Assembly (NCBI RefSeq): GCF_057098645.1
Contig: NZ_CM169472.1
Direction: 5' to 3' (one strand)
DNA length: 64,000 nucleotides
The translations under genes and the position numbers were made by a program. The notes beneath the pieces are model-generated. The model worked only from the letters and a program-made list of their open reading frames with translations, was not told the DNA's origin and searched no databases. Positions 10,057 through 62,708 of the stretch are shown here, one piece after another; positions within the stretch are counted from its first letter, which is position 1, and every line of letters starts with the position of its first letter.

Positions 10057-10066
10057 AGTCGCATCC

Positions 10067-11520
<1,454 letters not shown>

Positions 11521-33864: not shown

Positions 33865-33990
33865 ACGCTTTTCCTTGTGGATCTCAACTCGCCAGCACCT
33901 ATCTTACATGCCGGTCCGTATCAGAGATACTTTTTGAGTGGCTTTGCCGGTGATTAAAAATCAAGGAGGGTGTAACGACAAGTTGCAGGC

Positions 33991-34016
33991 ACAAAAAAAC
34001 CACCCGAAGGTGGTTT
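33991..34016 (-). terminator. rho-independent terminator at the original leuZ 3-prime flank
   Basis: aaaaaaaccaccc gaa ggtggttt hairpin; left copy of the repeat. Confidence 0.6.
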
Positions 34017-34059
34017 CACGACACTGCTTATTGCTTTGATTTTATTCTTATCTTTCCCA

Positions 34060-34115
34060 TGGTACCCGGAGCGGGACTTGAACCCGCACAGCGCGAACGC
34101 CGAGGGATTTTAAAT
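34060..34115 (-). other. tRNA-Leu 3-prime fragment (integration remnant)
   Basis: tggtacccggagcgggacttgaacccgcacagcgcgaacgccgagggattttaaat equals the 3-prime part of leuZ; 5-prime part replaced by island sequence. Confidence 0.85.
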
Positions 34116-36334: not shown

Positions 36335-36391
36335 TTTATATCCTTACATAGCTGGATGAACACCATAGATCATACTGATCCCAGATCCAAT

Positions 36392-36901: not shown

Positions 36902-36952
36902 AAAACCCCTTCTTATATAGTTCTGTAATATGTTAATTTAGCTGGGCTCTTA

Positions 36953-41058: not shown

Positions 41059-42843
41059 TTATGATGAAAAGAACGGCGAGTCCCGATAAAGGCGATTGTA
41101 CTTGACCTGTTCTGTTTCGCCCTTGTTTACATTACCAAATTTCTCCTGATGCGTCGTACAGCAGGAACCACAGGATGCACAAATAAATCGTCCTTCTGAA
41201 CATTTTTCATGCAAATCCCTGGCGTCAATTATTTCGCTGCATTTGTAACCAATACAGTGATTAATGTAATGCCCGATACCAAACTGTTCGCACGAATGAC
41301 TGGCACATTTAAAGACGGTCAGGCGATACGCGGCCTGGAAAGGTTTTTTCACAAATCCTTTCGACTTTGTATCCCAGACGCTGACTTCCACACGAGCATA
41401 TTTCATATCTGGAACCATCAGCACCCCACAACTTCGGCAATGCAAGCGGGAATGTAATTCTCTGATACGATTGAAATACCCAGCCAGTTTAATTGGGAAA
41501 TCCCGCTTAGAAGGTTCGCCTGCAATCAGATAGGTCATGCCATAGTGGGCAAGCCAGTCATAAATAGTGAAGTCGATGTAATCCCGACTGAGGTCGGGTA
41601 GTACCTGCGGATCATGGCAGATTTTCGAACGACAAAGGAATTTTTTCTCTATCGTTCCGTCAGGTTGTTTTGCATTCCAGTGAAATGCCTCACAGGATAA
41701 TTTTAAATTCCGGGAACGAATTTTCAATGAGCTACACTGTGGGAACAATTTGAAAACAGAAGGATGGCTTACCGGGATTTTACCCGACAACACTCCCTGC
41801 CATATCTCATGCAGAATAATACTCAGAACGGACTGTTCATCGTTACGCCCAATCAGCGGTAACAATTTACTCAGAATAAAGTATTCAGGGTCAGAAGAAA
41901 TTTCAGTATTCGACTCAATATCATTAACAAAACTGAAATCTTTCCTGAACATCTTCTGTTTAATCAAATACTTATTGACAAAAGGACTAATCACGGAATG
42001 TTTATAAAATTGCTCTCTCGATGAGAATTTCTGCTGATAGGCATCACGGACAAATGGTTGTATATCCATTTTATTTTTCGTGAAACTACGTCGAACAAAA
42101 TTCTCTATATCATCATGCCGATGTTCAAGAATCCGCTCGCTGCTTATACAATCGTAAAATGCCAGGTAGAGAATAGCACTTATAGATATATGGCTGAGTA
42201 ATTCATTGATGATGTCCGATGTTGAAGCCCCCTGGCAATCCGTAGCCGCAGAACACCTTTTCACCCAAACAGCGAACTGATCAATGTTATTATCGATAAA
42301 TGACGAAGGCATGACTGCAGGAGATATTTGTTGTGCGGTCAAATCATCAAAATTCTTATCAGAGGCGAAAAGTGCAAACTGGTTATCGTAGTTACGTGAT
42401 TTTAAAAATAGCGGCAAGACTTTTGTAGCAGCTATATCACTGGTAACTAACCGAATTATAGCCCTTTCGCCAAAGGACTGAGTGAGAAAATTAATAACGC
42501 AGTCACGATAACGCCAACGAGCGAAATCAACGCCCTCCTCAATAATAGCCCGGAGATATTCAATAAGGAGCTCAGCCGTCTCCTCATCTGTTTTATCAAG
42601 AATGTGAACATTAAAAGCCGTAGGCTTACCATTTTTACCTGTACCTTCCCTGAACAGCACCGGTGCATTGTCTGCGGGTGTATAGTTCCGGCTTATCTCA
42701 TTCTTATGAAAAAACAGCTCATTACCATTCTCTGATAAGAGAAAGCCAAAGTTATTCTCCCGATCCGTTTTGCTGTTGTAGCCTCCGAACCAGAGAACAT
42801 TTCCCATGTACCACCGGGAACGATCCAGATTGTTCACTGCCAT
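41059..42843 (-). CDS. protein of unknown function: N-terminal cold-shock-like domain, C-terminal Cys/His-rich putative zinc-ribbon region
   Basis: Start chosen at MAVNNLDR with RBS GAAGGGGG 7 nt upstream (594 aa); WFGGYNSKTDRENNFGFL resembles the CSD KWFN..KGFGFI core; C-terminal clusters CRSCG, CASHSC, CASCGSCC. Confidence 0.55.
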   Translation of the reverse strand: MAVNNLDRSRWYMGNVLWFGGYNSKTDRENNFGFLLSENGNELFFHKNEISRNYTPADNAPVLFREGTGKNGKPTAFNVHILDKTDEETAELLIEYLRAIIEEGVDFARWRYRDCVINFLTQSFGERAIIRLVTSDIAATKVLPLFLKSRNYDNQFALFASDKNFDDLTAQQISPAVMPSSFIDNNIDQFAVWVKRCSAATDCQGASTSDIINELLSHISISAILYLAFYDCISSERILEHRHDDIENFVRRSFTKNKMDIQPFVRDAYQQKFSSREQFYKHSVISPFVNKYLIKQKMFRKDFSFVNDIESNTEISSDPEYFILSKLLPLIGRNDEQSVLSIILHEIWQGVLSGKIPVSHPSVFKLFPQCSSLKIRSRNLKLSCEAFHWNAKQPDGTIEKKFLCRSKICHDPQVLPDLSRDYIDFTIYDWLAHYGMTYLIAGEPSKRDFPIKLAGYFNRIRELHSRLHCRSCGVLMVPDMKYARVEVSVWDTKSKGFVKKPFQAAYRLTVFKCASHSCEQFGIGHYINHCIGYKCSEIIDARDLHEKCSEGRFICASCGSCCTTHQEKFGNVNKGETEQVKYNRLYRDSPFFSS

Positions 42844-42865: not shown

Positions 42866-43549
42866 TCAGTGCAGGCAGCACTTTTTAAATTTTTTACCAC
42901 TGCCACACTGACACGGGTCATTACGACCGGGCAGTTTTTCTGCCCCCTTCACGGGAACAGGCCGGGATGATGCCTCTGACATTCTCACCGACAACCAGTG
43001 CTGGTAAAGCGCCAGTGCCGCAGGCTGAATGAGAGTAATACTCTGTTCAAATTGAACAGGTGACATTTTCTCAACCACTGGGAAGTTCTTTTCAATACCA
43101 TGAAGGGCTATCGCCTCCAGCGAGGGACGTAAGGCCTCTGGCAAGGCTGACCAGTCATCCAGAGACCGGCCTTTCATATACCCGAAACACCACTCTTCGA
43201 CGATGGTATATGTCTTCCCCTTCACCTCACGTCCATTGAAAATCGGTTCAAACTGTTCAGGGGCCTCATACAGGCAGCCAGCGATATCGTTCATATGCTG
43301 AAAACACAGCCCCACAAAACGCGTCATCTCTTTTTCAGTGGTCCAGCGAGGGTGGTAATCACCTCGCCCCCAGATAGCACTGAGCCAGGTATTAGGGGAA
43401 ATCGTATTCGGGCCAGAGACAATCGCCGTCAGAAAGCCATCCAGCTCAGAGAAACAGAGCACAGAGTCATCATTGCCGTATTTCATCAACACCTCTTCCA
43501 GCCAGTCGATTTCCCGGTCAATCAGCGGCCCGCTTTTCGTCAGTTTCAT
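42866..43549 (-). CDS. YecA-like UPF0149 protein with SEC-C motif (paralogue of chromosomal yecA)
   Basis: 227-aa ORF colinear with YecA at roughly 60 percent identity by eye, ends [24 protein letters not shown] overlap with hsdS stop; stop 22 nt before next gene. Confidence 0.7.
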   Translation of the reverse strand: MKLTKSGPLIDREIDWLEEVLMKYGNDDSVLCFSELDGFLTAIVSGPNTISPNTWLSAIWGRGDYHPRWTTEKEMTRFVGLCFQHMNDIAGCLYEAPEQFEPIFNGREVKGKTYTIVEEWCFGYMKGRSLDDWSALPEALRPSLEAIALHGIEKNFPVVEKMSPVQFEQSITLIQPAALALYQHWLSVRMSEASSRPVPVKGAEKLPGRNDPCQCGSGKKFKKCCLH

Positions 43550-44188
43550 TCGGCAACCGCCTCATCGACCTTAACACGACGTTTGCCAGTCAGTAGCTGT
43601 TGCATCAGGGCTTTTTTCTCGTCTTTCAGGCAGGCGAGTTTTTTCTCCAGCGTGGAGATTTCAGCGTCGGCAGCGGAAAGGACGGCGGCGATTTTTTGTT
43701 GTTCTTTGATATCTAATGGCAACCTAAAGTCTTTCTCTTTAAGTTCTCGCATATGTCTGCTGTAACCTAAATTCGGAATATCTGTATTTGAAAGAAGATA
43801 GTATCCAAGTTTTGGTTCAAGTATTTTGCTAGTTTTTATTACTTGCGTTCCATCAGCACCGGGACAAAACACAAACTCAATCCATTTGACGCATCTTGTA
43901 TGATCGCCAAAAACAATCACAGGCACGTCCGAATAAACCTCTAAATTATTACAGTACCCAGCAATTCGACTTTGCCCTTGATCGATTATAGGGATGGAAC
44001 CTGACTGTAAATAATCGGAAGATTTGACTTGCGCCGATTTTTTATTTGCAACAATGAAAGCATTATCAAACGTTAAATATACCCACTCCCCATTAAACCT
44101 CCCCCCATTCTCATCCAGCAAGCGTTTTTGTCCGGTAAGCAATTGCTGCATCAGGGCTTTTTTCTGTTGCTGGCTGTTGGTGAGAAGC

Positions 44189-45245
44189 GGCTTTGTTGAA
44201 TAAATCAGATTTCGGGTAAGTCTCCCCCGTAGCGGGTTGTGTTTTCAGGCAATACGCACGCTTTCAGGCATACCTGCTTTCGTCATTTTGTTCAGCGCTC
44301 GTACCAGGGCCATAGCCTCCGCAACCTGACCATCGTAGTCACGCAGCGTCAGTGAACCCCCGAACAGCTGTTTTACCCGGTACATCGCCGTTTCCGCTAT
44401 CGAGCGACGGTTGTAATCTGTTGTCCATTTCCACCGCGCATTACTCCCGGTCATTCGCTGATTAGCCACTGCACGGTTACGGTCTGCATATTCACCGGGC
44501 CAGTAGCCCGCACCTTTTCGGGGAGGGATAAGCGCGCTGATTTTCTTACGCCGCAGTTCATCGTGACATAGCCGGGTATCGTAAGCGCCATCGGCGGCGG
44601 CTGACCTGATTTTCCGGTGGGTTTGCCGGATTAACCCGGGGAAGGCCTCTGAGTCCGTAACGTTGTTCAGCGACAGGTCTGCACAGATGATTTCATGTGT
44701 TTTACTGTCAACGGCGAGATGCAGCTTACGCCAGATACGGCGGCGTTCCTGGCCATGCTTTTTGACTTTCCACTCGCCTTCACCGAAGACCTTCAGCCCG
44801 GTGGAATCAATCACCAGATGTGCGATTTCACCCCGGGTGGGCGTTTTGAAACTGACATTAACCGACTTTGCCCGCCTGCTGACACAGCTGTAATCCGGGC
44901 AGCGTAGCGGAACGTTCATCAGAGAAAAAATGGAATCAATAAAGCCCTGCGCAGCGCGCAGGGTCAGCCTGAATACGCGTTTAATGACCAGCACAGTCGT
45001 GATGGCAAGGTCAGAATAGCGCTGAGGTCTGCCTCGTGAAGAAGGTGTTGCTGACTCATACCAGGCCTGAATAGCTTCATCATCCAGCCAGAAAGTTATG
45101 GAGCCACGGTTGATGAGGGCTTTATTGTAGGTGGGCCAGTTGGTGATTTTGAACTTTTGCTTTGCCACGGAACGGTCTGCGTTGTCGGGAAGATGCGTGA
45201 TCTGATCCTTCAACTCAGCAAAAGTTCGATTTATTCAACAAAGCC
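44189..45245 (-). mobile_element. IS903-like element (IS5 family), copy 1, 1057 bp
   Basis: Terminal inverted repeats GGCTTTGTTGAATAAATC; 9-bp target duplication GTGAGAAGC at 44180-44188 and 45246-45254. Confidence 0.9.
44245..45213 (-). CDS. IS903-like transposase
   Basis: 322-aa ORF; recognised by eye as IS903/IS102-type transposase. Confidence 0.85.
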   Translation of the reverse strand: MKDQITHLPDNADRSVAKQKFKITNWPTYNKALINRGSITFWLDDEAIQAWYESATPSSRGRPQRYSDLAITTVLVIKRVFRLTLRAAQGFIDSIFSLMNVPLRCPDYSCVSRRAKSVNVSFKTPTRGEIAHLVIDSTGLKVFGEGEWKVKKHGQERRRIWRKLHLAVDSKTHEIICADLSLNNVTDSEAFPGLIRQTHRKIRSAAADGAYDTRLCHDELRRKKISALIPPRKGAGYWPGEYADRNRAVANQRMTGSNARWKWTTDYNRRSIAETAMYRVKQLFGGSLTLRDYDGQVAEAMALVRALNKMTKAGMPESVRIA

Positions 45246-45815
45246 GTGAGAAGCTTTTCCGTCACCGAAATCGCCTCATCCCAGGTTGACAGAATTTTAA
45301 CGATTCTCTTTTGTTCAGACAGTGGGGGGATATTAAATGGCCACTTAAACCAACTATCTAACTTAAAAATCATTTTCTCTATGTGCACACCAATGCTAGA
45401 GTGGAAGCAGGTTTGCTGGAAATATAGAGACTCCGATAGAAATTCCATATAAGGAAGATAAAAACCGGACTTCCCTGTAAGCACACAATATTCATTCGAT
45501 ACAATTGAGCCAGAAAGTTCTTTAGGTACAAGACCGCAAGCACCGTGCACAATTTGTCGTTTTGATATGAGAAAGTCGCCTTCTTTAATATAGAATTGAC
45601 TTTTTACGGAGATATCTTTTCCTTTAAGATGCTCACGTCTTATTACGCCACCTCTGGAGCGCTTTACTGTAACTAAGTCATACTCTTGATTATCTTGTAT
45701 ATATGCCTTTCTTGCCTCTATATTTAAGCACTTTTCTAATGATAACTTTTGCCATCCTGTAGGTAGCATTCCAAGGATCGGTTTTCCAGCTTTAACGCTC
45801 ACTGGGTAAAGCGAA

Positions 45816-47339
45816 TCACGAGCCATAACCCAACTCCTTCAAATACCCTGCCATCTCAACTTCCAGCTTCGCCAGTTCCACCTTCAGTTGCTCACGCTCT
45901 GCTCGCACCGCCACCAGGTCAATCTCATCCTCTTCTTCAAAGGTATCGACATAGCGCGGAATATTGAGGTTGTAATCGTTGTCCTGAATTTCCTTCAGGC
46001 TGGCAAGATAGGCGTATTTCTCGACGTTATCGCCATCACGGTAGGTCTTGACGATTTTCTTAATGTTTTCTTCGCTAAGCTGGTTCTGGTTTTTACCTGC
46101 CTTGAATTCACGGCTGGCATCGATAAACAGCACCTTGTCATCAACTTTCTACTTTTTGAAAATCAGAATCGCAGCCGGAATCCCCGTACCGTAGAACAGT
46201 TTTTCCGGCAGACCAATTACCGCATCCAGCAAATTTTCGTCGATCAGTTTCTGGCGAATTTTACCTTCGCTGGAGCCACGGAAAAGCACACCGTGTGGCA
46301 CAACTACGCCCATACGGCCAGTTCCCGGTTTCAGGGTTTCGATCATATGCGAGATAAAAGCGTAATCTCCTTTAGTCTTCGGCGGTACACCGCGACGAAA
46401 ACGGCCAAACTTATCGTTCTCGGCCTCGTCATGGCCCCACTTATCGAGGCTGAACGGTGGGTTAGCGGTCACGATATCAAACAGCATCAGGTCGCCATTT
46501 TTATCGAGCAGCTTCGGGTTACGAATGGTATCGCCCCACTCGATTTTATGGTTGTCTTCCCCGTGCAGGAACATATTCATTTTCGCCAGCGACCACGTAG
46601 AACCGATCGCTTCCTGACCGAACAAGGCATAGTTACGACTATCATGCCCGGAGACAATTTTACGCCCACACTTCATCAATAATGAACCGGAACCACAGGC
46701 TGGATCGCAGATGGTATCACCCGGTTGCGGATCGAGCAGTTCTGCAATCAGGTCCGAAACTTCCGGCGGGGTATAGAACTCCCCGGCTTTCTGCCCACCG
46801 CTGGCGGCAAAGTTTTTGATCAGGTATTCGTAAGCATTGCCGATAACGTCCAGCGTACCGACACGACTCGGCTTCAGGTTGAGATCTTCACCGGCGAAGT
46901 CTTCCAGTAGCTGACGCAGTATGGTGTTTTTCTGTTTTTCTTCGCCAAGACGATCGGTGTTAAACGAAATATCCTGGAACACGCTTTTCCCGGCATCTTT
47001 CAGTTTGGTTCCGTTGGCTTCTTCGATTGCATGCAGAGCCTGATCGATACGCTCACCGTTACCCAGCTCATGGCGGCGTTCGTACAGCGCATAAAAGCTG
47101 GCACTTTTTGGCAGTACAAAACGCTCGTTGGCCATCATCGCTTCAATCAGTTCCGGCGCATCGCCATACTGTTCTTTGTATTCGTCATAGTGATCCTGCC
47201 AGACATCTGAAATGTACTTGAGGAACAGCATGGTAAGGATAAAGTCTTTATAGGTATCAGCACTGATGGTGCCACGGAACGTATCACACGCGGCCCACAG
47301 GGCTTTGTTGATCGTGTCCTGACTGATTTTGTCGTTCAT
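45816..47339 (-). pseudogene. hsdM: type I R-M methyltransferase HsdM with in-frame amber codon at 46149-46151
   Basis: 396-codon ORF with N6-adenine MTase motifs (DPACGSG, NPPF) stops at ...AAILIFKK TAG, then continues in frame KVDDKVLFIDAS... for 105 more codons; overlaps hsdS start. Confidence 0.8.
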
Positions 47340-47714
47340 GAATCATCCTGGTCTGAAGAAAAAGCTAGCGATGCAGGGCTTTGCATCTTAAAAATTGCGG
47401 TAAATGATACCGTAAGATGCCTCCCCTGACACGCCAATATCGCAGCATTCAGGTTTGCATCATCCCCGTAATATCGACATGAGACAGACTGACACAACCT
47501 GGCTCGTCACTCGCTAAAAACCAATTATCTTAGTAAGATAGCATCCATATTAGCCATGGTGTAAAACTGCCGTTGGGGTAATGATGATCCATATATCACC
47601 CATTCTGGTGTGTGAAGCTGACATCATCCATAATCGGCAACGTTGATGCCCTTTGATAGTAATGATGACCGTCAATGTGATTCCCCTGCTGACTGGAGGT
47701 CTCCGGATAGAATG

Positions 47715-48878
47715 AGTATTGCCAACTGCGCTATCGGCCCACTTTATGATGAGCAAATAAAAAAAACACTTATGTATGCTGACCATAAATTCAAGCGGCT
47801 AATGAATACACGAATGTCGTTACTCGAACATTTATCACCCCACTATGACTTATCTTCCATGTTCAGCTATGAGTTGGAGGGAAGAGTTTTTCGGATTAAA
47901 TTGATCAAGCCTGAGATTAAATTATCTCGCCAGCAGTTGATCTTCTCCTCACTCTTTTTAGAGCAAGATTTTCTAAAAGAATATAAAAAACACATCTCAA
48001 ATACTCTACAAAAAACAATCAAACAGTGCATTAAAAAATACAAACAAAAAATCAAAATCGAGCCTTCTATTTTAGATTACATATCAGCATCACCCCGCAA
48101 TACGTCGAGTTATGTATTACATGAGATAGTTTCTCAATGTGAACATTGCGATGAAATTCGCAATATTAAAAATGATATATTGCTTGATGAACTAACGTTG
48201 AATGGCCGGATCACTAACATTTCAAAATACATTAAAAATAGTCAAGATAAAATCGTCGAACATATAGAGTTCTGCACTCATAAACTTGTCAATATAAGTC
48301 GTAAGAATCGTCACATTTTCAACAGCACCACAATACCTGGTAGAAAACCTAACATCACTGGTGTTTTACTTTGCCTTTCGGAATTGATAAGCAACCTGCA
48401 TATTTACCCAACTGAAATTAATAATATAAGCAATGCCATAATATTAAGCATTGTATACTCTGTACTTCAACATCTTCAATCTGGAAGAGAAACAGAAAAA
48501 ACCAAAACCTCTCCAGCACTGAATTTCATCCCCACCATCATCGCACCTCATGTTTTCTACCTGGCGAAACGCGAAAAATCCTCTCAATATAAATACATTG
48601 AAAAAGAATATCTTCTCGGCCAGTTACTTATATTTTTGATGTATAAAACAGTTTACTACTCGATTCATAGCATCAGGGTAAGCCGTAAGCATTTCTATAA
48701 CGATATAAAACCAAAATTAATGACACTAAAAAAAGAAAGCTTATTAAGCACCAATTTCATGAAAAATCGAAGAGAGATTAGTGGTGAAGTCTTTGGTGAT
48801 GTTGGTAGTATTGAGGCTGATTTTCGAGAAATCAGCACATTGATTCATCGGCGAAAGGCTCTGTTTATTTCCTTTTAA
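47715..48878 (+). CDS. hypothetical protein, AT-rich, Lys/Ile/Asn-rich
   Basis: Long ORF in strongly AT-rich DNA; start chosen at MSIANCAIG; no recognisable motifs. Confidence 0.4.
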   Translation, partial: SIANCAIGPLYDEQIKKTLMYADHKFKRLMNTRMSLLEHLSPHYDLSSMFSYELEGRVFRIKLIKPEIKLSRQQLIFSSLFLEQDFLKEYKKHISNTLQKTIKQCIKKYKQKIKIEPSILDYISASPRNTSSYVLHEIVSQCEHCDEIRNIKNDILLDELTLNGRITNISKYIKNSQDKIVEHIEFCTHKLVNISRKNRHIFNSTTIPGRKPNITGVLLCLSELISNLHIYPTEINNISNAIILSIVYSVLQHLQSGRETEKTKTSPALNFIPTIIAPHVFYLAKREKSSQYKYIEKEYLLGQLLIFLMYKTVYYSIHSIRVSRKHFYNDIKPKLMTLKKESLLSTNFMKNRREISGEVFGDVGSIEADFREISTLIHRRKALFISF

Positions 48879-49279
48879 TCTTTAGAGAACACTATATCAT
48901 CGTGAAGCAGAGCTAATTTCAGCCTTGCATAGATCATTATCAATGCCATAGACAGTGTTAATCATATGACATCGTTCCGGTATTGATACTGATTATCAGG
49001 CCTTGGTTTTATGTAATTTAAACACCACCATCTCTGAAACCCCATAACGCTCACAATTTAACCATAAAAACTAACCGGTTTATACCCGCTAACAAAATCA
49101 ATAACATATTGAATTTAAATAACTATAACCATTCCAACTACAGATGACTGGCTTTTATTTATGGTATATGTCCCGGCAGAATCAAGCTTGCGCCCTCTAC
49201 CACTCACGATTTAGGATTTCCTCGCTAACACAGCATGTTTCATTATAAATCAATGTATTAATTTAAACGAGGATAAACC

Positions 49280-50126
49280 ATGTTCGAGAAAATGAAAAAC
49301 AATGTAACCCGTGTACCGGGGAATTTAACCATACTTAATCAATACCAAAAAGACATTGATCACCTGTCTAAATTATTTTCTGAACAGCTATTACTGGATC
49401 TAATGACGACTACCAACCCTAATCAAACATTGCAAATGAAACCTTCTGTAGATATTCTTCATGTACTATCTCCATCAGCATCCACTGCTAACCATATCAA
49501 TTTTTTTCAGCACGTCCCAGTGATCGAACTATGGTTAAAAAAGGAGTGCACTGCCTTTAATTCACTTGCTATTTATTTCTATGCACAGCAATCCCGTAAA
49601 AATGTCATTCCGAAAAAAAATCTGTAGACAACTGGACGTATTTATTAATACTGAACTTGCATCTGCGGTTAATGGCAATAGTAATTCTAAACCCCTTTTT
49701 CATTTTCTAAATAACTACCTTTATCATCCTAAAATGATTGCATTGATCATTTTATCTATGCTGCCTTATGAAGTCATTCGTAACGATGAATCACTGAGTG
49801 AGTTTAAAACACCATTAACCACACCCGATGAGTTTATTATCAAAGCATTTTGCGTTAAAGGTACGCAAAACACCACGGGACATAAAAAAGATATCGAACA
49901 ATTGCTTCGAAAAACATATATCTACATTGCATTACTTTTGAACCCTGAGTGGGTACCATCATCCAAGGATTTGATTTCCTTTTTATCAGGAGAGTCCACC
50001 GAGATAAGTGGTTCAATGAATTTCCAGTCAACGTCCAGTGGTCTGGGTGTTCAAACTAACAATATCACTCTTCTTAAGAATGAGGTTTACTTCGAAAAAA
50101 TAGCGAACAAGATCATGAAACTGTAG
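49280..50126 (+). pseudogene. hypothetical gene split by a frameshift in an A8 tract (49614-49621)
   Basis: ORFs 49280-49627 and 49566-50126 overlap in different frames; with A7 instead of A8 the frame reads through (...IPKKICRQLDVF...). Confidence 0.45.
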
Positions 50127-50271
50127 TTTCTTAATATAATGGCGACATGGAATTGTGTTGCCATTATATCCGAATCAGAATTTTTCACCTGATGAACTGT
50201 GAAAACTGAGACTGGCAGACAGTAATCTCGCACCGTATTTTTTCTGTGTTATTTTACAGGAGAAATACGAT

Positions 50272-51400
50272 GCCCATTCTGGATCTGCGTTTCAGCAACA
50301 AATCACTTCACCAACTTCCCCATCCCCTCACGGGCTGTCAGGAATACCGTGATATTCACTGCCAAAACCTGCGTGCTCTGGTGTATCCCAATCGGATCAC
50401 GCTGGCCTTTCGTGCCACTATAAACAATCAGCGTATATATGAACCCCTGGGTCAGTTCCCTCAGCTCTGCGTTGAGGATGCCCGTCAGCATGTGATGAAA
50501 CTGCTTGCTGATAAAAATCGTCTTGCGGTTCAGTCCCGTCGATTCACTGTGGAACAGGCCATCAATGACCTGTGGCTACCGGATTTGCAGTTGTATAAAA
50601 AGAGTCCTCAGTCAGAGTTGTCAAAACTCAACCTCTACGTTCGCCCGTTCTGGGGCAAGCGGCAACTTCGCGACATCACGGCAGGAGAACTAGAACAATA
50701 TGCTGCTGGCTTACGGGAAAAATTACGTCCGTCAACAGTAAACCGTATCCTCGCAATATTGTCCAAAATATGCTCTCTGGCAGTACGTGCTGGATGGATC
50801 ACGCATTCCCCGATGTCACATGTCCGCTATCTGAAAGAAAATAACATTCGCTATCGCACACTATCAGCGACAGAAATCCCGCGCTTTATTGACGCGGCAA
50901 CAGCGCTGCAAACACCGGCAGCTGATTCTATATTGCTTGCTCTTTATACGGGGATGCGTATTGGTGAGGTATGTACCCTGAAATGGGAGTACTGGCACCT
51001 GGATATGCATCAACTCATACTGCCTGATACAAAGTCCGGACACCCTTTCACCTGCCCACTTGCACCTCCAGCCATTGCAGTTGTCCAGTGCCAGCAGGAC
51101 CTGATGCTCAGCAAAACTTACATTTTTCCGCGACTAACCGACAATGCCCGCCCTCTGGCATATCCGCGTGCAACCTTTGCCCGTATTTGCCGGGATGCCG
51201 ACATTGATAACCTGCGGATGCATGACCTGCGCCGTACCTTTGCCACCCGGGTACTACAGGCGACCGGGGATATTGCAATCGCTTCCCATCTGCTAAATCA
51301 CCATTCACTCACGGCGACCCGTCGCTACGCTTTTCACAATGCAGCGACATCACACGCAGTGGTTTCTCAGGTCATTGAAAGTTATGACACGAAAAAATGA
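50272..51400 (+). CDS. tyrosine-type site-specific integrase
   Basis: RBS AGGAG then ATG; catalytic signature R (YTGMRIGE), HDLRRT, HH, RYAFH with Tyr. Confidence 0.75.
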
Positions 51401-51440
51401 ACCAATGATCTGTGATTCGTGAAAGCAGTTCGCAGAAAGA

Positions 51441-51608
51441 TTGAATCTTTCTGCATCCACGGTTGCGTCAGATATTTCTCGCAATCCCGGAAAACTCCCG
51501 CCCTTCATCAGAATTGGGCGGGCTATACGATTCTCTCTTGACGATATTGTTGATTGGGAAAATGCACATCGTCAAAACAAACTTAAAGGTGATATAAATG
51601 GTTACTAA
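51441..51608 (+). CDS. AlpA-like excisionase / HTH regulator (short ORF, no ATG; possibly TTG-initiated or a remnant)
   Basis: Translation LNLSASTVASDISRNPGKLPPFIRIGRAIRFSLDDIVDWENAH resembles AlpA-type HTH; frame opens right after a TGA. Confidence 0.4.
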   Translation: MNLSASTVASDISRNPGKLPPFIRIGRAIRFSLDDIVDWENAHRQNKLKGDINGY

Positions 51609-51786
51609 GAACACGGAAAATAACGCTAATAATGCACTGAACATTCTTCCCGAATCAGCAAGCACAGCTGTAGACAACGATGAAAAATATCTGTCCTTTG
51701 CATTAGTTCTCGCTATCACGATTATGGGCAACTGAACCGCCCCGGGAATCCTGGAGACTAAACTTCCTGAGAAAGAGGTAAACAGG

Positions 51787-52113
51787 ATGACTAAAAATAC
51801 TCGTTTTTCCCCTGAAGTCCGTCAACGGGCAGTCCGTATGGTTCTGGAAAGTCAGGGCGAATATGACTCACAATGGGCGACAATTTGTTCCATTGCTCCA
51901 AAGATTGGCTGTACGCCGGAGACTCTGCGTGTCTGGGTTCGCCAGCATGAGCGGGATACCGGGGGCGGTGATGGAGGGCTCACCACCGCTGAACGTCAGC
52001 GTCTGAAAGAGCTGGAGCGTGAAAATCGTGAACTGCGCCGCAGTAACGATATCCTTCGCCAGGCTTCCGCTTATTTTGCGAAGGCGGAGTTCGACCGCCT
52101 CTGGAAAAAATGA
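51787..52113 (+). CDS. IS629 OrfA (transposase N-terminal HTH part)
   Basis: 108-aa [22 protein letters not shown]... Confidence 0.85.
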
Positions 52114-53000
52114 TGCCACTGCTGGATAAGCTGCGTGAGCAGTACGGGGTCGGACCGCTATGCAGCGAACTGCATATTGCCCCGTCAACGTATTACCACT
52201 GTCAGCAACAGCGACATCATCCGGATAAACGCAGTGCCCGTGCGCAGCGCGATGACTGGCTGAAGAAAGAGATACAGCGCGTATACGATGAAAATCACAA
52301 GGTATACGGTGTGCGTAAAGTCTGGCGTCAGTTGTTACGGGAAGGTATCAGAGTGGCCAGATGCACTGTGGCACGTCTCATGGCGGTTATGGGACTTGCC
52401 GGTGTTCTCCGGGGTAAAAAGGTCCGTACGACCATCAGCCGGAAAGCCGTTGCCGCAGGCGACCGCGTAAACCGTCAGTTCGTGGCAGAACGACCTGACC
52501 AGCTGTGGGTGGCTGATTTTACTTACGTCAGCACATGGCAGGGCTTCGTCTATGTGGCGTTCATCATTGATGTGTTTGCCGGATACATTGTGGGGTGGCG
52601 GGTCTCATCGTCCATGGAGACGACATTCGTGCTGGATGCACTGGAGCAGGCGTTATGGGCCCGTCGACCGTCCGGCACGGTCCATCACAGTGATAAAGGT
52701 TCTCAGTATGTATCGCTGGCCTACACACAGCGGCTTAAGGAAGCCGGATTACTGGCATCAACAGGAAGTACAGGCGACTCGTATGACAACGCGATGGCGG
52801 AGAGCATCAATGGTCTTTACAAAGCGGAGGTAATACACCGTAAGAGCTGGAAAAACCGTGCAGAAGTGGAACTGGCCACACTCACGTGGGTGGACTGGTA
52901 TAACAATCGACGATTGCTGGAAAGGCTGGGCCATACTCCTCCGGCAGAAGCAGAAAAAGCTTATTATGCTTCCATCGGAAACGATGATCTGGCAGCCTGA
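52110..53000 (+). CDS. IS629 OrfB (transposase catalytic part, DDE)
   Basis: 296-aa ORF overlapping orfA. Confidence 0.85.
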
Positions 53001-53662
53001 GTTCACAGATAAAACACTCTCCAGGAAACCCGGGGCGGTTCAAACTTAGTAAAGCTCATCGGCACAGATGGCTTCATACTTTATACCTACACCCTGCAGG
53101 ACACGGCTACTGCTCGTGCTGTTTTTAATGAATTAGCCAGGCGTCTCAAAAATTTCAATCGTCAGGAGGAGGTCTACACCACCGATTCCCTCACCTTTCG
53201 AATGAAATACATTTACGGTGTTACCCTGTTCGAACATGATAGTAAATCTATCCTTAACCTTTTTGATAAGAAGGGTTATCCAGTATTGAGTGAATCAGGA
53301 GAACCCGGTTCTCTTGATGATATGTATCTTGACATTCAAGCCCGATTACATGGCGGCTACGCCTCAAAAAAGTTTCTTCATTTACATGAACATTGTCTGT
53401 TATCTGCACACGTTACCCCGTCTGTGGAAAAGACGCAACGTGGTATCCTGATTAAAGCAGGCAGGAAACTCGTTTCCTTTATCTATGCAGATAATGAATC
53501 TCGCAAAAATGATATTTTCAAAGCTGTAGTAGACGTCATTAAATCCTGATTCATTATGCCGGGTGCGTATTCCGCTCTATTCGATCACGGATTGGCATCG
53601 AAGTCCGATCAGCGATTCGCATCCATTCGATCAACCGGGAACTTAACTTTTTCTACCGCTTT

Positions 53663-54421
53663 TTAACGCGTTTTTTCGCTGCTTTCCACTACCGGGGGAT
53701 TTTTCCTCAGTGACTCTCCCTGAAGGACCACTCGGTGTGAGTTATGTACCAGTCTGTCCAGGATGGCATCTGCTGTTGTTGGGTTCTCCATCAGACCATG
53801 CCATTTATCTACCGGGAACTGGCTTACCACTATCGTGCTGCTTTGTCCGTAACGATCCTCTATGAGCTCCAGAAGGTCATTACACTGGGCGTTACTTAAC
53901 TGTTCCAGCCCCAGATCGTCCAGGATTAGAACCTGTATTTTTTGCAACTGTTTCAGATATTTCAGCCAGCTGCCATCAACACGTCCCTGAGCCAGTTGTT
54001 CCAGTAATCGCCCGGTTCTACAGTACCGGACGCTGTGTTTCTGTCGACATGCCTGTTCGCCCAGCGCATTGGCTATCCAGCTCTTGCCACATCCTGTCGG
54101 ACCGGTTATCAGCAGGTTTTTCCTGTGGGTTATGTAGTGGCCGTTCAGCAGTTCTCTCATCTGTTCAGCCCGCAGACCTCTTGAGGCCGGATAGCGCAGC
54201 CCTTCCGGTGTTGCCTGGTATTTCAGGCCGGCATTTTTTCTCAACCGTGCCACACGGCTGTTTTCCCTGCTCAGAAGCTCGTCATCAACCAGCAGCGTCA
54301 GCCTTTCCTCGAACGACAGTTCGTCGTAGGTCTGAGGCGTTTCCCGCTGCCGTATCAGGCTCCCGGCCATCGCCGGGAGTTTCAGTTGGGTCAGTTTGTT
54401 TAACAGGTTATCACTCATACT
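53663..54421 (-). CDS. istB: IS21-family IstB ATP-binding helper protein
   Basis: Start at MSDNLLNKL; Walker A GPTGCGKS. Confidence 0.75.
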   Translation of the reverse strand, partial: SMSDNLLNKLTQLKLPAMAGSLIRQRETPQTYDELSFEERLTLLVDDELLSRENSRVARLRKNAGLKYQATPEGLRYPASRGLRAEQMRELLNGHYITHRKNLLITGPTGCGKSWIANALGEQACRQKHSVRYCRTGRLLEQLAQGRVDGSWLKYLKQLQKIQVLILDDLGLEQLSNAQCNDLLELIEDRYGQSSTIVVSQFPVDKWHGLMENPTTADAILDRLVHNSHRVVLQGESLRKNPPVVESSEKTR

Positions 54422-54434
54422 GTTGTTCCTTCTG

Positions 54435-55970
54435 TCAGTGGTAGTAGCCCGGACCACGCAGGTTTTCATGCTCTGAAGCATATGCCGGATGTTGTTCGCC
54501 CTGGCGGGATAATGGAAGCTCCAGGTTCTCCCGATGGTGACGCAGCAGATTGTCGATAAAGCGTCTGTCAGGGGCGTTATAGTGCAGGGCAACGTAACAG
54601 GCCTTTTCCAGCCGTTCCGGGCCGTATTTTTTCTGAAGTGCCAGCAGCCCCAGAACTGCACGATAAGCCAGTTCCGGATGGGGTTTTGCCTTCAGCATGG
54701 ATTCAACCACCCGGCCTGTGGACGGGCCCGTACGTTTTCCCTGCTCGATCAGGCGTTCCGGTGTCCATGTCCCGTGCTGCCGGTGGCGCTCTGGCATGTG
54801 AAGCGGATTGGTTGTGTGTTTATATTCATGTGTGCTGCGCGGATGTTGCGCCACACACTGCCCCTTGTGCCAGAGCTGTACCACCGACTGCCCCGCCTTC
54901 AGTGACAGACGCTGACCGACCAGTTCGTGTGGAACGGAGTACCAGTGACGGGCATATTCAACGTGGTAGTCAGGGCCAACCTTCACAGCTTTGTATTCCG
55001 TGTATTCATAAGGTGCCAGAGGCAGCGGAGAGAGTGCTGGCGCATCCAGTATGCGGAAGCGTTCTGCACGGGTTTGATTGCCGTACCCCTTCATTGGCCG
55101 GTTATTCATGTCTGTCAGTAACTCCCTAAGGCGCGCATTCAGCGCCCTGAGCGTGTGGAAGGTTTCATTACGGATGCGGGCAAGAAGCCATCGTTCAACG
55201 ATGAGGACGCCGTTTTCTGCTTTTGGTTTATCTTTAGGTTTGCGTGGTCGGGCCGGGATGATAACCGTGCCATAGTGCTCAGCCAGTGCCTGATAACTGT
55301 CGTTGATGACAGGCTCATATCGATCGGCCTTTTTCACTGCGCTTCTGAGGTTATCGGGGATGAGCAGCTTCGGTACGCCGCCCAGGAAGGTCAGGCAACG
55401 GCTGTGGGCATTTAACCATGACATCATGTCCTGACCTTCGCACGCTTCAACGTAGGTATAGTTGGACGCCCCCATTACGGCCACGAAGATTGCCACGCGG
55501 CGTATCTCACCGGTGTCCGGATTAATAACAGGAACCGTAGGACCACAGAAGTCGATAAAAAGCTTTTCGCCGGCACGATGCTCCTGGCGCATGGAGAGAC
55601 GTCGCGTTTTTTTCCACTCCCGGTAGCAACGGCAGAAGTGCGAGTATCCCATCGCTTTGTTACCCGCCTGTGCCTTGTATTCCATCCACAACAGTTGCCG
55701 CGTCACACCTGGTTTTCTCATTTCCGTATCGAAGTACAACATGTCAGGCATTACAAGCTCTGATGCAAAGGTGTCTTTGGGCGGAAAAATGAGTTTCTCC
55801 AGCGTGTCATGGGATATATCAGCAGGTAATGGCCATGACAGAGAAGAGGCTTTGAAGCGGGCAAGAACCTCAAAAACGGTTGAGGCGCTGATGTGTAACG
55901 TCAGTCCGATACAACGGTTAGTCAGCTTCTTGTCGAACTTGAGCTGAAGGATCTTAAAACAGGTTTCCAT
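54435..55970 (-). CDS. istA: IS21-family transposase IstA
   Basis: Start chosen at METCFKIL; DDE integrase-type fold; precedes istB. Confidence 0.7.
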   Translation of the reverse strand: METCFKILQLKFDKKLTNRCIGLTLHISASTVFEVLARFKASSLSWPLPADISHDTLEKLIFPPKDTFASELVMPDMLYFDTEMRKPGVTRQLLWMEYKAQAGNKAMGYSHFCRCYREWKKTRRLSMRQEHRAGEKLFIDFCGPTVPVINPDTGEIRRVAIFVAVMGASNYTYVEACEGQDMMSWLNAHSRCLTFLGGVPKLLIPDNLRSAVKKADRYEPVINDSYQALAEHYGTVIIPARPRKPKDKPKAENGVLIVERWLLARIRNETFHTLRALNARLRELLTDMNNRPMKGYGNQTRAERFRILDAPALSPLPLAPYEYTEYKAVKVGPDYHVEYARHWYSVPHELVGQRLSLKAGQSVVQLWHKGQCVAQHPRSTHEYKHTTNPLHMPERHRQHGTWTPERLIEQGKRTGPSTGRVVESMLKAKPHPELAYRAVLGLLALQKKYGPERLEKACYVALHYNAPDRRFIDNLLRHHRENLELPLSRQGEQHPAYASEHENLRGPGYYH

Positions 55971-56594
55971 AGTGCTCCTGGATTTTCTCTTTCTGGACAT
56001 TGACGTCTCCACTGGTTTAAACACGGCAATGGAGACTGTGGTGAAAAGAGTTAATTCCCGGAGTGACTGGCAGGATGCCAATCAATGATCGGAAGCATGC
56101 CAAATCGTGATCGATTGTGATGCCAAACTGTGATCGGAGATGGATGCCAAATCATGATCGATTCGAATGCCAAACTGCGATCGATTCAGATGCCATTTTG
56201 CAGCCGGGGGGGACGAACTCCCGGCATTTTTTCGGAGTTAACTATGAGCAATAATTTGCAGGACATCCTCGCTGCCGCATCGGGGTATCAGTCCGTGACT
56301 TCAGAGCCAGCGCTCAATCTTAAAAGACCTAAAACGCTTGATGATTATCCTGTGATACCACCTGCATCAAAAAAAGTATCTGTTATTTCAAGTGACCTGA
56401 CACTCCATATCGGTTTTGATACCGAATATGTTTTCAATCCTGAAACACAACAGAATGATATTCTGTCATATCAGAGTTATGTTGTCTTACCCGATAATAC
56501 AGGTATATCGAACATTATCTATCCACCTGACTCACAGAAAAAATCCCGGCTGTCTTTTAAGAACTTTCTCTGTCAAACGATTATGGATTTGCCC

Positions 56595-57500
56595 CTATAT
56601 TTCCAGACATCTGTTATCACTTAACCCATTACAAGCCCGCTGCCGCAGATATTCCCGTGGCGAGCGATAACCCAGCGCACTATGCGGATGCCATTCGTTA
56701 TAATGCTCGAACGCCTCTGCAAGGTTCTTTGCTGCCGTTAACCCGTCTGGTTTGGGCATGATACTGATGTAGTCACGCTTTATCGTTTTCACGAAGCTCT
56801 CTGCTATTCCGTTACTCTCCGGACTCCGCACCGCCGTGTTCTTCGGTTCAAGTCCCAACATCCGGGCGAACTGGCGTGTTTCATTAGCCCGGTAGCATGA
56901 ACCATTATCCGTCAGCCACTCCACTGGAGACGACGGAAGATCGTTGCCGAAGCGGCGTTCCACCGCTCCCAGCATGACGTCCTGTACTGTTTCACTGTTG
57001 AAGCCGCCGGTAGTCACCGCCCAGTGCAGTGCCTCACGATCACAGCAGTCCAGCGCGAACGTGACACGCAGTCTCTCTCCGTTATCACAGCAGAACTCGA
57101 ACCCGTCAGAGCACCATCGCTGATTGCTTTCTTTCACGGCCACTCTGCCTGTATGTGCCCGTTTCGATGGCGGTACAGCAGGTTTTCGCTCAAGCAACAG
57201 CGCATTCTGGCGCATGATCCGGTAAACACGTTTGGCATTGATCGCAGGCATACCATCAAGTTCTGCCTGTCTGCGAAGCAGCGCCCATACCCGACGATAA
57301 CCATACGTGGGCAGCTCTCCGATAACATGGTGTATACGGAGAAGCACATCCGTATCATCAGTGTGACGACTGCGGCGGCCATCCATCCAGTCATCGGTTC
57401 GTCTGAGAATGACGTGCAACTGCGCACGCGACACCCGGAGACAACGGCTGACTAAGCTTACTCCCCATCCCCGGGCAATAAGGGCGCGTGCGCTATCCAC
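56595..57500 (-). CDS. insD: IS2 transposase InsD
   Basis: 301-aa ORF. Confidence 0.85.
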
Positions 57501-62578: not shown

Positions 62579-62708
62579 CAGGCACAAAAAAACCACCCGG
62601 AGGTGGTTTCACGACACTGCTTATTGCTTTGATTTTATTCTTATCTTTCCCATGGTACCCGGAGCGGGACTTGAACCCGCACAGCGCGAACGCCGAGGGA
62701 TTTTAAAT
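62579..62708. repeat. attR: 130-bp direct repeat (leuZ 3-prime part plus downstream flank)
   Basis: Matches 33986-34115 with 1 mismatch. Confidence 0.9.
62584..62609 (-). terminator. rho-independent terminator downstream of leuZ (copy within attR)
   Basis: aaaaaaaccaccc gga ggtggttt. Confidence 0.6.

What the first reader, a model, noticed from the sequence alone, without database searches (positions are those of the whole stretch)
47340..50245. Strongly AT-rich block with a 388-aa protein of unknown function
Composition is visibly far below the surrounding E. coli average and the proteins are Lys/Ile/Asn-rich with no motif I recognise. This looks like recently acquired DNA from a low-GC donor, probably H-NS-silenced.
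Basis: seen in the sequence. Interest (0 to 1): 0.4.

Follow-up and report, generated by a model that had tools for sequence, protein, structure and literature searches.

The report
AT-rich orphan genes inside a pipolin
The AT-rich block is real and holds two orphan genes, one intact and one broken, at the junction between the defence cargo and the integrase/polymerase core of a known E. coli mobile element (a pipolin); it is a long-standing part of that element, not a fresh import, and what the genes do is still unknown.

Summary
Window 47340-50245 is 36.4% GC against a 48.5% window mean, the lowest block of its size. The 388-aa ORF (47712-48878, "A") is a real gene. A second gene, "B", is 376 aa in relatives. 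Here it is a pseudogene (49280-50126) with an A7->A8 frameshift and a 285-bp deletion.

The block lies inside a pipolin (attL 33986-34115, attR 62579-62708 in tRNA-Leu). It sits between the type I restriction-modification cargo and the core: IntP2, excisionase-like HTH, hyp212, piPolB. In 15 complete loci from seven genera, B always lies directly upstream of IntP2 on the same strand. A is optional.

Both genes are under purifying selection (dN/dS 0.12-0.35) and are 33-38% GC in every host. Both are orphans confined to Enterobacterales. Pfam, PADLOC, PHROGs, NCBIfam and PDB gave no credible match, and fold searches with the B model found nothing.

B is hypervariable. Two cores with 92-99% identical neighbouring genes carry B proteins that are only 40% identical.

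"Recent import from a low-GC donor" is not supported. H-NS silencing is plausible but untested. My best guess, at low confidence, is a conflict-driven specificity or regulatory factor tied to the IntP2 module. A new defence gene is the main rival. The element is known, so interest is modest.

The parts
33986..34115 (.). attL: left 130-bp direct repeat of the pipolin (context, defines the element that holds the block)
   Evidence: 99.2% identical to 62579-62708
47340..47711 (.). Intergenic region between hsdM (- strand) and gene A. It is 45% GC, so not yet AT-rich. Homology to pipolins that lack A runs up to 47580.
47557..47581 (+). Conserved 25-mer TGGTGTAAAACTGCCGTTGGGGTAA, the left border of the variable cassette. 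It lies upstream of A in type-1 pipolins and directly upstream of B in types 2 and 3. It looks like a promoter (TG + TAAAAC), which is my inference.
   Evidence: single copy in the window; 27 bp around it are 100% identical in Serratia
47712..48878 (+). Gene A: intact 388-aa orphan protein. It is predicted mostly alpha-helical (from an unreliable model), basic (pI 9.5), has no transmembrane segment, and is 34% GC.
48879..49279 (.). A-B intergenic region, 36% GC. It is not alignable between E. coli and Edwardsiella except for the last ~80 bp. The Shine-Dalgarno GAGGA lies 7 nt before the B start codon.
49280..50126 (+). Gene B, a pseudogene here (376 aa when intact). An A7->A8 frameshift at 49613-49620 gives a stop at 49625-49627. 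A 285-bp deletion with its junction at about 49710-49711 removes roughly residues 145-239.
   Evidence: the same allele is present in O145:H28 RM12761
50135..50168 (+). Hairpin with a 14-bp stem immediately after the B stop codon, not followed by a U-run. The Edwardsiella and Citrobacter copies carry compensatory changes.
   Evidence: (I8)
50192..50204 (+). ATGAACTGTGAAA, invariant in all 8 aligned pipolin subtypes. This is the right border of the variable cassette, where homology to type-2 and type-3 pipolins resumes (from 50189).
50230..50273 (+). Conserved leader hairpin that pairs an upstream anti-SD stretch with the Shine-Dalgarno (AGGAGA) and the AUG (50270) of IntP2.
   Evidence: RNAalifold gives 16 pairs, mostly invariant. 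In the window dG is -27.6 kcal/mol with z = -5.3; EC24 gives z = -5.4; the Edwardsiella copy is weaker.
50270..51400 (+). IntP2-type tyrosine recombinase (376 aa from ATG 50270), the gene that B always precedes (context).
62579..62708 (.). attR: right 130-bp direct repeat, overlapping the 3' part of tRNA-Leu(taa) at 62653-62739 (context).

Best explanation
The AT-rich block is a variable cassette (about 47582-50188) at the junction of the two modules of an enterobacterial pipolin. On its left is exchangeable defence cargo, here a type I restriction-modification system. On its right is the conserved core: IntP2, an excisionase-like HTH protein, hyp212, piPolB, and further on a WYL protein, a GTPase, DUF2787 and IntSXT.

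The cassette encodes two lineage-restricted orphan proteins. B (376 aa) behaves as a core gene with a fixed position and a hypervariable sequence. A (388 aa) is an optional companion. Both are genuine protein-coding genes kept at 33-38% GC.

In this window A is intact and B is dead, as part of a general decay of this copy of the pipolin.

Shown here: the identity of the element, the anatomy, gene reality, distribution, hypervariability and pseudogenisation.

Inferred, at low confidence: the cassette is read from the conserved promoter-like 25-mer toward IntP2. B, with A where present, would act as a conflict-driven specificity factor of the element. It could be a sensor or regulator gating the IntP2-Xis-piPolB excision/replication module, or an exclusion factor. 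This would resemble the fast-diverging, integrase-adjacent regulators of phage satellites. The conserved hairpin over the IntP2 ribosome-binding site would stop read-through from the cassette from producing integrase.
For: Element identity:
- 130-bp direct repeats, with attR in tRNA-Leu.
- The piPolB carries the KTRG motif and a KH dipeptide at 613-614, where PMC5695915 places K613/H614.
- The gene order matches published enterobacterial pipolins (PMC11551731, PMC7385651).

Fixed position:
- In 15 complete loci from Escherichia, Citrobacter, Edwardsiella, Serratia, Intestinirhabdus, Enterobacter and Buttiauxella, B lies 143-170 bp upstream of IntP2 on the same strand.
- In E. coli, A-B occurs in 271 and IntP2 in 288 of 5426 complete genomes.

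Real genes: dN/dS is 0.12-0.35 and full-length ORFs are kept at 41-70% amino-acid identity.

Hypervariability: Serratia versus E. coli EC24 gives IntP2 92%, piPolB 92%, WYL 98% and GTPase 99%, but B only 40%. There are three B subfamilies at 35-42% identity.

Cassette borders: a conserved 25-mer on the left and an invariant 13-mer on the right.

Not ordinary cargo: the same family fills the site in every element, whereas the adjacent hsdM is 96-99% identical across cores that are only about 70-77% identical, which indicates recent exchange.

Not a known defence system: no hit in PADLOC, NCBIfam or PHROGs.

IntP2 leader hairpin.

B is predicted all-alpha (pLDDT 66.7; A's model is unreliable at pLDDT 39.6). 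Both proteins are basic and lack transmembrane segments.
Against: - B points the same way as the integrase, whereas satellite and phage master repressors are usually divergent.
- The 13-mer in the IntP2 leader is invariant while B is hypervariable, so B is unlikely to recognise it.
- No transcription, binding or phenotype data exist for either gene.
- Promoter-like consensus sites are not enriched in the block: 6 found against 12 expected.
- Defence-island context and fast evolution fit a defence role equally well.
Confidence: 0.55

Rival explanations
1. A and/or B are a new anti-phage (abortive-infection-like) or anti-mobile-element defence system. They would be carried as the innermost cargo of a defence island and would diversify through an arms race with phages.
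For: - Pipolins are defence islands; about one gene in five in Enterobacterales pipolins is a defence gene (PMC11551731).
- The neighbours here are a type I restriction-modification system, a GmrSD/DUF262 protein, and in relatives Mza and a PD-(D/E)XK nuclease.
- Low GC, orphan status and rapid divergence are typical of defence genes.
- A has a weak Pfam AbiJ_NTD4 hit, E = 0.008.
Against: - No PADLOC, NCBIfam or PHROG model matches.
- The AbiJ hit scores 17 bits against a 34-bit cut-off and is seen in only 2 of 8 family members, so it is best treated as chance.
- No enzymatic, NTPase, nuclease or transmembrane effector feature was found.
- Unlike hotspot cargo, the same family occupies the site in every pipolin subtype and stays put while the adjacent restriction-modification cargo is swapped.
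- No homologues occur in the phage collection, and the only plasmid match is an IS1-truncated fragment.
Confidence: 0.3
2. The block is a xenogeneic AT-rich insert recently taken from a low-GC organism, transcriptionally silenced by H-NS, and functionally irrelevant to the host and the element.
For: - The block is 36% GC in a genome region averaging about 48.5%.
- H-NS occupancy in E. coli correlates inversely with GC, as shown for ETEC H10407 (PMC4287617).
- B is a pseudogene here.
Against: - Both genes are under purifying selection.
- Position and low GC are conserved in seven genera, with saturated synonymous divergence.
- No homologue was found outside Enterobacterales, so no donor can be named.
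- B's decay goes with decay of the whole element in this strain: hsdM has a nonsense codon, hsdS, hyp212 and piPolB are hit by IS elements, and IntSXT is truncated.
- H-NS binding is compatible with the other explanations and was not tested.
Confidence: 0.1
3. A and B are structural or mechanistic helpers of pipolin transfer or replication, for example an origin-binding, partition or packaging-hijack factor, rather than conflict or specificity proteins.
For: - They are linked to the integrase and replicase module in pipolins. A is also linked to such a module in a piPolB-less island: L003 carries A, a different integrase and a DUF927 protein.
- Pipolins have no known transfer genes, so unassigned core orphans are candidates (PMC11551731).
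Against: - No iterons or repeats were found in or around the block.
- 40% identity between B proteins of near-identical cores is hard to reconcile with a housekeeping mechanistic role that must fit 92%-identical partners.
- A is dispensable in types 2 and 3.
Confidence: 0.05

Closest known systems
Enterobacterial pipolins (piPolB-encoding integrative elements at tRNA-Leu) and their unnamed 'orphan' core genes (Mateo-Caceres & Redrejo-Rodriguez 2024, PMC11551731; Flament-Simon et al. 2020, PMC7385651)
   Same: The integration site, the direct repeats and the gene order are the same: IntP2, excisionase, orphan, piPolB, WYL, DUF2787, IntSXT. The bimodular layout of cargo plus core is also the same. 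The paper states that orphan proteins belong to the conserved core and that the type I restriction-modification cargo is recently exchanged. I see the same pattern.
   Different: The papers give no function for these genes. In the text held here they do not single out these two genes, their low GC, B's hypervariability, the cassette borders or the IntP2 leader hairpin. I could not verify that A or B are the '2 orphan proteins' of their MacSyFinder model, because no supplement is held.
Master repressors of phage satellites (SaPI Stl) and phage immunity regions (comparison from my own knowledge of those systems)
   Same: An integrase-adjacent orphan, predicted helical, diverges far faster than the surrounding excision and replication genes. 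It is flanked by conserved sequence, which would allow allele exchange.
   Different: No HTH or other DNA-binding domain was detected. The gene is co-oriented with the integrase instead of divergent. No helper phage or induction is known for pipolins. At 376 aa it is larger than typical repressors.
Defence hotspots next to the integrase in P4-like satellites and P2-like prophages (Rousset et al. 2022; from my own knowledge)
   Same: AT-rich accessory genes sit immediately upstream of an integrase, between conserved flanks, within a mobile element rich in defence genes.
   Different: In those hotspots unrelated systems replace each other. Here a single family (B, with or without A) fills the site in all elements examined, and no defence model matches it.
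Lactococcal AbiJ (Pfam AbiJ_NTD4, PF18863)
   Same: Only a weak local similarity of A residues 90-237 (E = 0.008).
   Different: The score is below the gathering threshold (17.1 against 34 bits), and the hit is absent in 6 of 8 family members. This is not a member.
Fold-back inhibition of transposase translation in IS10/IS50 (from my own knowledge)
   Same: A leader hairpin occludes the Shine-Dalgarno sequence and the AUG of the recombinase, so transcripts entering from upstream should be poorly translated.
   Different: This is a tyrosine integrase of an integrative element, not an IS transposase. The internal promoter that would escape the hairpin has not been located, and there is no experimental support.

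Membership tests
Pipolin (element that holds the block) | Encodes a primer-independent family-B DNA polymerase (piPolB) with the KTRG motif | tested here: met
   Window 57940-60135 is 99% identical to residues 121-851 of the 851-aa protein that PGAP calls 'DNA polymerase type-B family' in related records. It has KTRG at the position equivalent to 623 and KH at 613-614, as in PMC5695915. The Pfam DNA_pol_B_2 hit is only weak, E = 0.0014. The gene is split by an IS3-family insertion in this window.
Pipolin (element that holds the block) | Integrated at tRNA-Leu and flanked by direct repeats, with attR overlapping the tRNA | tested here: met
   130-bp repeats at 33986-34115 and 62579-62708 are 99.2% identical; tRNA-Leu(taa) lies at 62653-62739.
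Pipolin (element that holds the block) | Enterobacterial core synteny: IntP2 followed by an excisionase near piPolB, and IntSXT next to the att site | tested here: met
   The tblastn map shows IntP2 at 50270-51397, HTH at 51423-51605, hyp212, piPolB, and a truncated IntSXT at 60047-60523. DUF2787, WYL and the GTPase are missing from this degraded copy but present in relatives.
Pipolin core gene (for B) | Present at a fixed position in pipolins of different subtypes and genera | tested here: met
   B lies directly upstream of IntP2 in all 15 complete loci from seven genera. In E. coli, A-B occurs in 271 genomes and IntP2 in 288.
Pipolin core gene (for A) | Present at a fixed position in pipolins of different subtypes and genera | tested here: not met
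   A is absent from type-2 (Serratia) and type-3 (EC24, Intestinirhabdus, Enterobacter, Buttiauxella) pipolins. It is present in type 1 and in one piPolB-less island, L003.
Known anti-phage defence systems (PADLOC-DB 2.0, NCBIfam 20.0) | Significant match to a system's protein model | tested here: not met
   PADLOC gave 0 families at E <= 1 for A and B. NCBIfam gave nothing above noise.
AbiJ (PF18863 AbiJ_NTD4) | Score at or above the Pfam gathering threshold, shared by family members | tested here: not met
   17.1 bits against a cut-off of 34; only 2 of 8 members hit.
H-NS-silenced xenogeneic DNA | AT content well above the genome average | tested here: met
   64% AT against about 51.5% for the window.
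H-NS-silenced xenogeneic DNA | H-NS occupancy (ChIP) and derepression in an hns mutant | not testable with these tools
   An H-NS ChIP-seq data set exists for H10407, which carries an intact copy at NC_017633.1:2116073-2118942. No chromosomal H-NS peak table is among the files held. The motif count is inconclusive.
Satellite/phage master repressor (Stl/CI-like) | Recognisable DNA-binding (HTH) domain | tested here: not met
Satellite/phage master repressor (Stl/CI-like) | Transcribed divergently from the genes it represses | tested here: not met
   A and B are on the same strand as IntP2, Xis and piPolB.

The most novel reading that the evidence does not exclude
B (with A in type-1 elements) is a previously unrecognised hypervariable specificity protein of pipolins. 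One version is a sensor or regulator that decides when the IntP2-Xis-piPolB module excises and self-replicates, which would give pipolins an induction switch comparable to Stl of phage satellites. The other version is a new all-alpha single-gene phage- or element-exclusion system. In either case allele swapping between the conserved 25-mer and the IntP2 leader would drive diversification.
Probability: 0.25. Interest if true: 0.6.

Novelty: already known. Interest (0 to 1): 0.3.

Why it matters
In itself the block is an ordinary piece of a described mobile element. It is present in about 5% of complete E. coli genomes and annotated there as hypothetical proteins.

It matters modestly for three reasons.
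1. How pipolins are regulated and transferred is an open question, and the fixed-position, fast-evolving gene B next to the integrase is an obvious untested candidate.
2. The case shows that low GC here is a long-maintained gene property rather than a timestamp of acquisition.
3. The conserved hairpin over the IntP2 start site suggests a testable translational control of the integrase.

Tried and rejected
- Pfam, PADLOC, PHROGs and NCBIfam on A and B gave nothing credible. Scans of each family member showed the AbiJ_NTD4, HAM1_C, Mer2 and DnaJ hits to be inconsistent noise.
- A and B as paralogues: BLASTP and hhalign were negative, with probability 0.08%.
- An exhaustive HMMER profile search for A against 1.84 billion representatives found only 8 close relatives or fragments.
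- A profile search for B found 59 clusters, all in Enterobacterales.
- A species-representative genome scan for B found 7 loci, all in Enterobacteriaceae.
- AlphaFold2 of A gave pLDDT 39.6, which is unusable, so I did not search with it.
- The afdb50 library was unavailable.
- PDB sequence profile searches returned 0 hits.
- Phage and plasmid tblastn found nothing except an IS1-truncated B fragment next to the same restriction-modification system on a Klebsiella plasmid.
- Rfam on 47000-51800 returned 0 matches at E <= 1.
- Repeats and iterons: only short chance pairs.
- Promoter and terminator consensus scans showed no enrichment.
- Transmembrane helices: maximum KD19 of 1.23 and 1.51, below the usual ~1.6 threshold.
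- No internal att-like repeat lies near the block.
- The H-NS motif count was not informative.
- A literature search for the RefSeq protein accessions found no papers.
Full report
**Observation**

Sliding-window composition shows a sharp trough. GC falls from about 0.50 at 46750-47250 to 0.32-0.37 between 47750 and 50250, then returns to 0.49 by 50250-50750. This is the minimum of all 2906-bp windows (mean 48.5%, sd 4.0%). The first ~370 bp (47340-47711) are 45% GC, so the truly AT-rich part is about 47700-50245.

The 388-aa protein is the ORF from ATG 47712 to 48878. The longest mechanical ORF starts at TTG 47643 (411 aa), and PGAP annotates 410 aa in relatives. Orthologues from other genera all begin at the MSI... 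methionine. I call this gene A.

**A second gene, broken here**

The closest intact relatives, such as E. coli PapRG-06-5 (99% identity), are 285 bp longer over this block. They carry two annotated hypothetical proteins, of 410 aa (PGAP start) and 376 aa.

The 376-aa gene, which I call B, corresponds to window 49280-50126 and is a pseudogene here. An extra A in a poly-A run (A7->A8, 49613-49620) shifts the frame and gives a stop at 49625-49627. A 285-bp deletion with its junction at about 49710-49711 removes roughly residues 145-239. This explains the 115-aa and 186-aa ORFs in the mechanical list. The same broken allele is present in E. coli O145:H28 RM12761, whose integrase is 100% identical to the window's.

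**Context: the block lies inside a pipolin**

The block sits between a type I restriction-modification system on the minus strand and a tyrosine integrase on the plus strand. The restriction-modification genes are hsdR 37705-40989, a cold-shock-domain protein, a YecA-like protein, hsdS and hsdM. The integrase is followed in relatives by an HTH_17 excisionase-like gene, a 212-aa orphan and an 851-866-aa protein that PGAP names 'DNA polymerase type-B family'.

The window's copy of that polymerase has the KTRG motif, and a KH dipeptide at 613-614 where the literature places K613/H614 of primer-independent PolB.

A 130-bp direct repeat at 33986-34115 and 62579-62708 bounds the element. The right copy overlaps tRNA-Leu(taa).

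This is the published architecture of E. coli pipolins: integration at tRNA-Leu, attL/attR repeats, IntP2 plus excisionase near piPolB, IntSXT next to the att site, and a distal cargo module rich in defence systems including type I restriction-modification (PMC7385651, PMC11551731). The AT-rich block therefore sits exactly at the cargo/core junction of a known mobile element.

**Are A and B real genes?**

Yes. Nei-Gojobori estimates give dN/dS of 0.12-0.35 for both genes in comparisons within E. coli and with Edwardsiella and other relatives. Synonymous sites are saturated between genera, with dS of 1.1 to above 1.8. Full-length ORFs are preserved at 41-70% amino-acid identity.

**What are they?**

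Orphans. Pfam, PADLOC, PHROGs and NCBIfam gave nothing credible. The one suggestive hit, AbiJ_NTD4 on A (E = 0.008, 17 bits against a 34-bit cut-off), is seen in only 2 of 8 family members, and I treat it as chance.

A and B are not paralogues.

- A profile of the A family, searched with HMMER against 1.84 billion cluster representatives, found only 8 sequences. All are close relatives or fragments.
- The B family has 59 clusters, all in Enterobacterales.
- A scan of one genome per species found 7 loci, all in Enterobacteriaceae.
- PDB sequence profile searches found nothing.
- There are no homologues in 50,697 phage records. The only plasmid match is a 97-aa B fragment cut by IS1, next to the same restriction-modification system on a Klebsiella quasipneumoniae IncFIB plasmid. 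This is a footprint of cargo exchange, not a second home for the gene.

**Distribution and synteny**

I mapped A, B, IntP2, HTH, hyp212, piPolB, WYL, GTPase, DUF2787, IntSXT and hsdM by tblastn onto all fetched loci.

In all 15 complete loci, B lies 143-170 bp upstream of IntP2 on the same strand. These loci come from Escherichia, Citrobacter, Edwardsiella, Serratia, Intestinirhabdus, Enterobacter and Buttiauxella.

A is present only in the common E. coli-type ('type 1') elements, found in E. coli, Citrobacter, Edwardsiella and Intestinirhabdus. Protein-search hits add Salmonella and Klebsiella aerogenes. A also occurs alone in one piPolB-less island (L003), upstream of a different integrase followed by a DUF927 protein.

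In complete E. coli genomes, A-B is found in 271 of 5426 and IntP2 in 288 of 5426. B therefore behaves as a core gene and A as an optional companion.

**Hypervariability and cassette borders**

B falls into at least three subfamilies that are 35-42% identical.

The contrast with its neighbours is striking. Between the Serratia element (L005) and E. coli EC24 (L010), IntP2 is 92% identical, piPolB 92%, WYL 98%, GTPase 99%, HTH 84% and hyp212 73.5%. B is only 40% identical.

At the DNA level, similarity between the window and type-2 or type-3 elements stops at 47580-47582 and resumes at 50189.

- The left border is a conserved 25-mer, TGGTGTAAAACTGCCGTTGGGGTAA (47557-47581). It precedes A in type 1 and directly precedes B in types 2 and 3, and looks like an extended -10 promoter, which is my inference.
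- The right border is an invariant ATGAACTGTGAAA (50192-50204) in the IntP2 leader.

By contrast, hsdM next door is 96-99% identical across elements whose cores are only about 70-77% identical. This is the recent cargo exchange described in the literature (PMC11551731). In Serratia, a stretch homologous to the hsdM 5' end survives next to different cargo.

**Low GC is not a sign of recency**

A and B are 33-38% GC in every locus examined, including the Edwardsiella and Serratia loci. Their neighbours are 47-51% GC. Their divergence between E. coli and Edwardsiella (59% and 69% amino-acid identity) matches that of IntP2 (69%). The block has therefore travelled with pipolins for a long time without its composition drifting toward that of the host. 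No low-GC donor can be identified.

**Regulatory features in the B-IntP2 spacer**

A hairpin with a 14-bp stem follows the B stop codon (50135-50168). It carries compensatory changes in Edwardsiella and Citrobacter and has no U-run.

A second, conserved hairpin (50230-50273) pairs an upstream stretch with the IntP2 Shine-Dalgarno sequence and the AUG at 50270. RNAalifold predicts 16 pairs, nearly all invariant. The window's 76-nt leader folds at -27.6 kcal/mol (z = -5.3), and EC24's copy gives z = -5.4. The Edwardsiella copy is weaker.

I read this as fold-back control that keeps transcripts arriving from the cassette from being translated into integrase. That is an inference.

**Mechanism: how far one can go**

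Shown: element identity, anatomy, gene reality, distribution, hypervariability, and B's inactivation.

Not shown: any activity.

The combination of fixed position, family conservation, extreme divergence relative to neighbours, and conserved flanks is what one sees for specificity or immunity determinants of mobile elements. I therefore favour a conflict-driven specificity or regulatory factor tied to the IntP2-Xis-piPolB module, at low confidence.

The main rival is a new defence gene. It is favoured by the neighbourhood, but weakened by the lack of any effector-like feature and by the fact that the site is never occupied by an unrelated system.

The motif count is uninformative. A ChIP-seq data set exists for H10407, which carries an intact copy, but no H-NS peak table is among the files held.

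**State of this copy**

The whole pipolin in the window is decaying.
- hsdM has an in-frame stop at 46146-46148.
- hsdS is split by an IS5-family element.
- The excisionase-like gene lacks its 5' end.
- hyp212 and piPolB are interrupted by IS3-family elements, and an IS21-family element has inserted between them.
- IntSXT is reduced to its arm-binding part.
- The 246-aa gene next to attR is interrupted, with a second IS5 copy lying just upstream.

B's loss is part of this general erosion. A remains intact.

**Verdict**

This is a correct observation of an ordinary component of a known element. The genes are uncharacterised orphans. The new points from this analysis are B's behaviour as a hypervariable cassette and the integrase-leader hairpin. 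Both are leads, not discoveries.

Noticed in passing
window 50230-50273: A conserved RNA hairpin sequesters the Shine-Dalgarno sequence and the AUG (50270) of the IntP2 integrase. It is present in all 8 pipolin subtypes aligned. In the window dG is -27.6 kcal/mol with z = -5.3. It may act as fold-back control of integrase translation.
   Followed up: partly
window 50135-50168: A strong hairpin with a 14-bp stem lies right after the gene B stop codon, without a U-run. The Edwardsiella and Citrobacter copies carry compensatory changes. Its role is unknown; it could be a transcript 3' end or stabiliser, or a protein-binding site.
   Followed up: partly
window 47557-47581 and 50192-50204: Two single-copy conserved elements bracket the variable cassette: a 25-mer on the left and an invariant 13-mer ATGAACTGTGAAA on the right. 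Homology to other pipolin subtypes breaks exactly between them.
   Followed up: partly
window 46146-46148: hsdM carries an in-frame stop codon after residue 396 of 507. The type I methylase is probably inactive in this strain.
   Followed up: yes
window 43546-45826: hsdS is split by an IS5-family insertion (transposase at 44245-45213). A second, identical transposase ORF lies at 60742-61710, just upstream of the interrupted 246-aa gene next to attR.
   Followed up: partly
window 51422-60135: The pipolin core is heavily disrupted. A 143-bp deletion removes the 5' end of the excisionase-like HTH gene. An IS3-family element (51734-53042) splits hyp212. An IS21-family element (istA/istB, 53663-56081) sits between hyp212 and piPolB. 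Another IS3-family element (transposase ORF 56595-57500) splits piPolB after about codon 113.
   Followed up: partly
window 33986-34115 and 62579-62708: 130-bp direct repeats (99.2% identical) define the pipolin as about 28.7 kb. attR overlaps tRNA-Leu(taa), upstream of the cysT-glyW-pgsA region.
   Followed up: yes
L019 (Klebsiella quasipneumoniae plasmid pKqu-1, NZ_CP097647.1:162428-176658): The same type I restriction-modification cargo (hsdR, CSD protein, YecA-like, hsdS, hsdM) sits on an IncFIB plasmid. Next to it is a 97-aa fragment of a fourth B variant, cut by IS1. This is direct evidence of exchange between pipolins and plasmids that dragged along part of B.
   Followed up: partly
L003 (Logan ERR1891491 contig, 5450-10385): This piPolB-less, pipolin-like island carries an A homologue (46% identity) alone. 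It lies upstream of a different tyrosine integrase (27% identity to IntP2) followed by a DUF927 protein. DUF2787 and an IntSXT-like integrase are nearby.
   Followed up: no
loci L010, L014-L017 compared with the window (hsdM at 45816-47339): hsdM is 96-99% identical in protein across pipolins whose IntP2 and piPolB are only about 70-77% identical. This shows recent horizontal replacement of the cargo module independent of the core.
   Followed up: partly
window 41500-42700 and about 34000-37000: There are other low-GC stretches inside the pipolin cargo. The gene for the 620-aa cold-shock-domain protein embedded in the restriction-modification operon is about 39-41% GC. The region of the GmrSD/DUF262 gene averages about 38% GC in 2.9-kb windows.
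   Followed up: no
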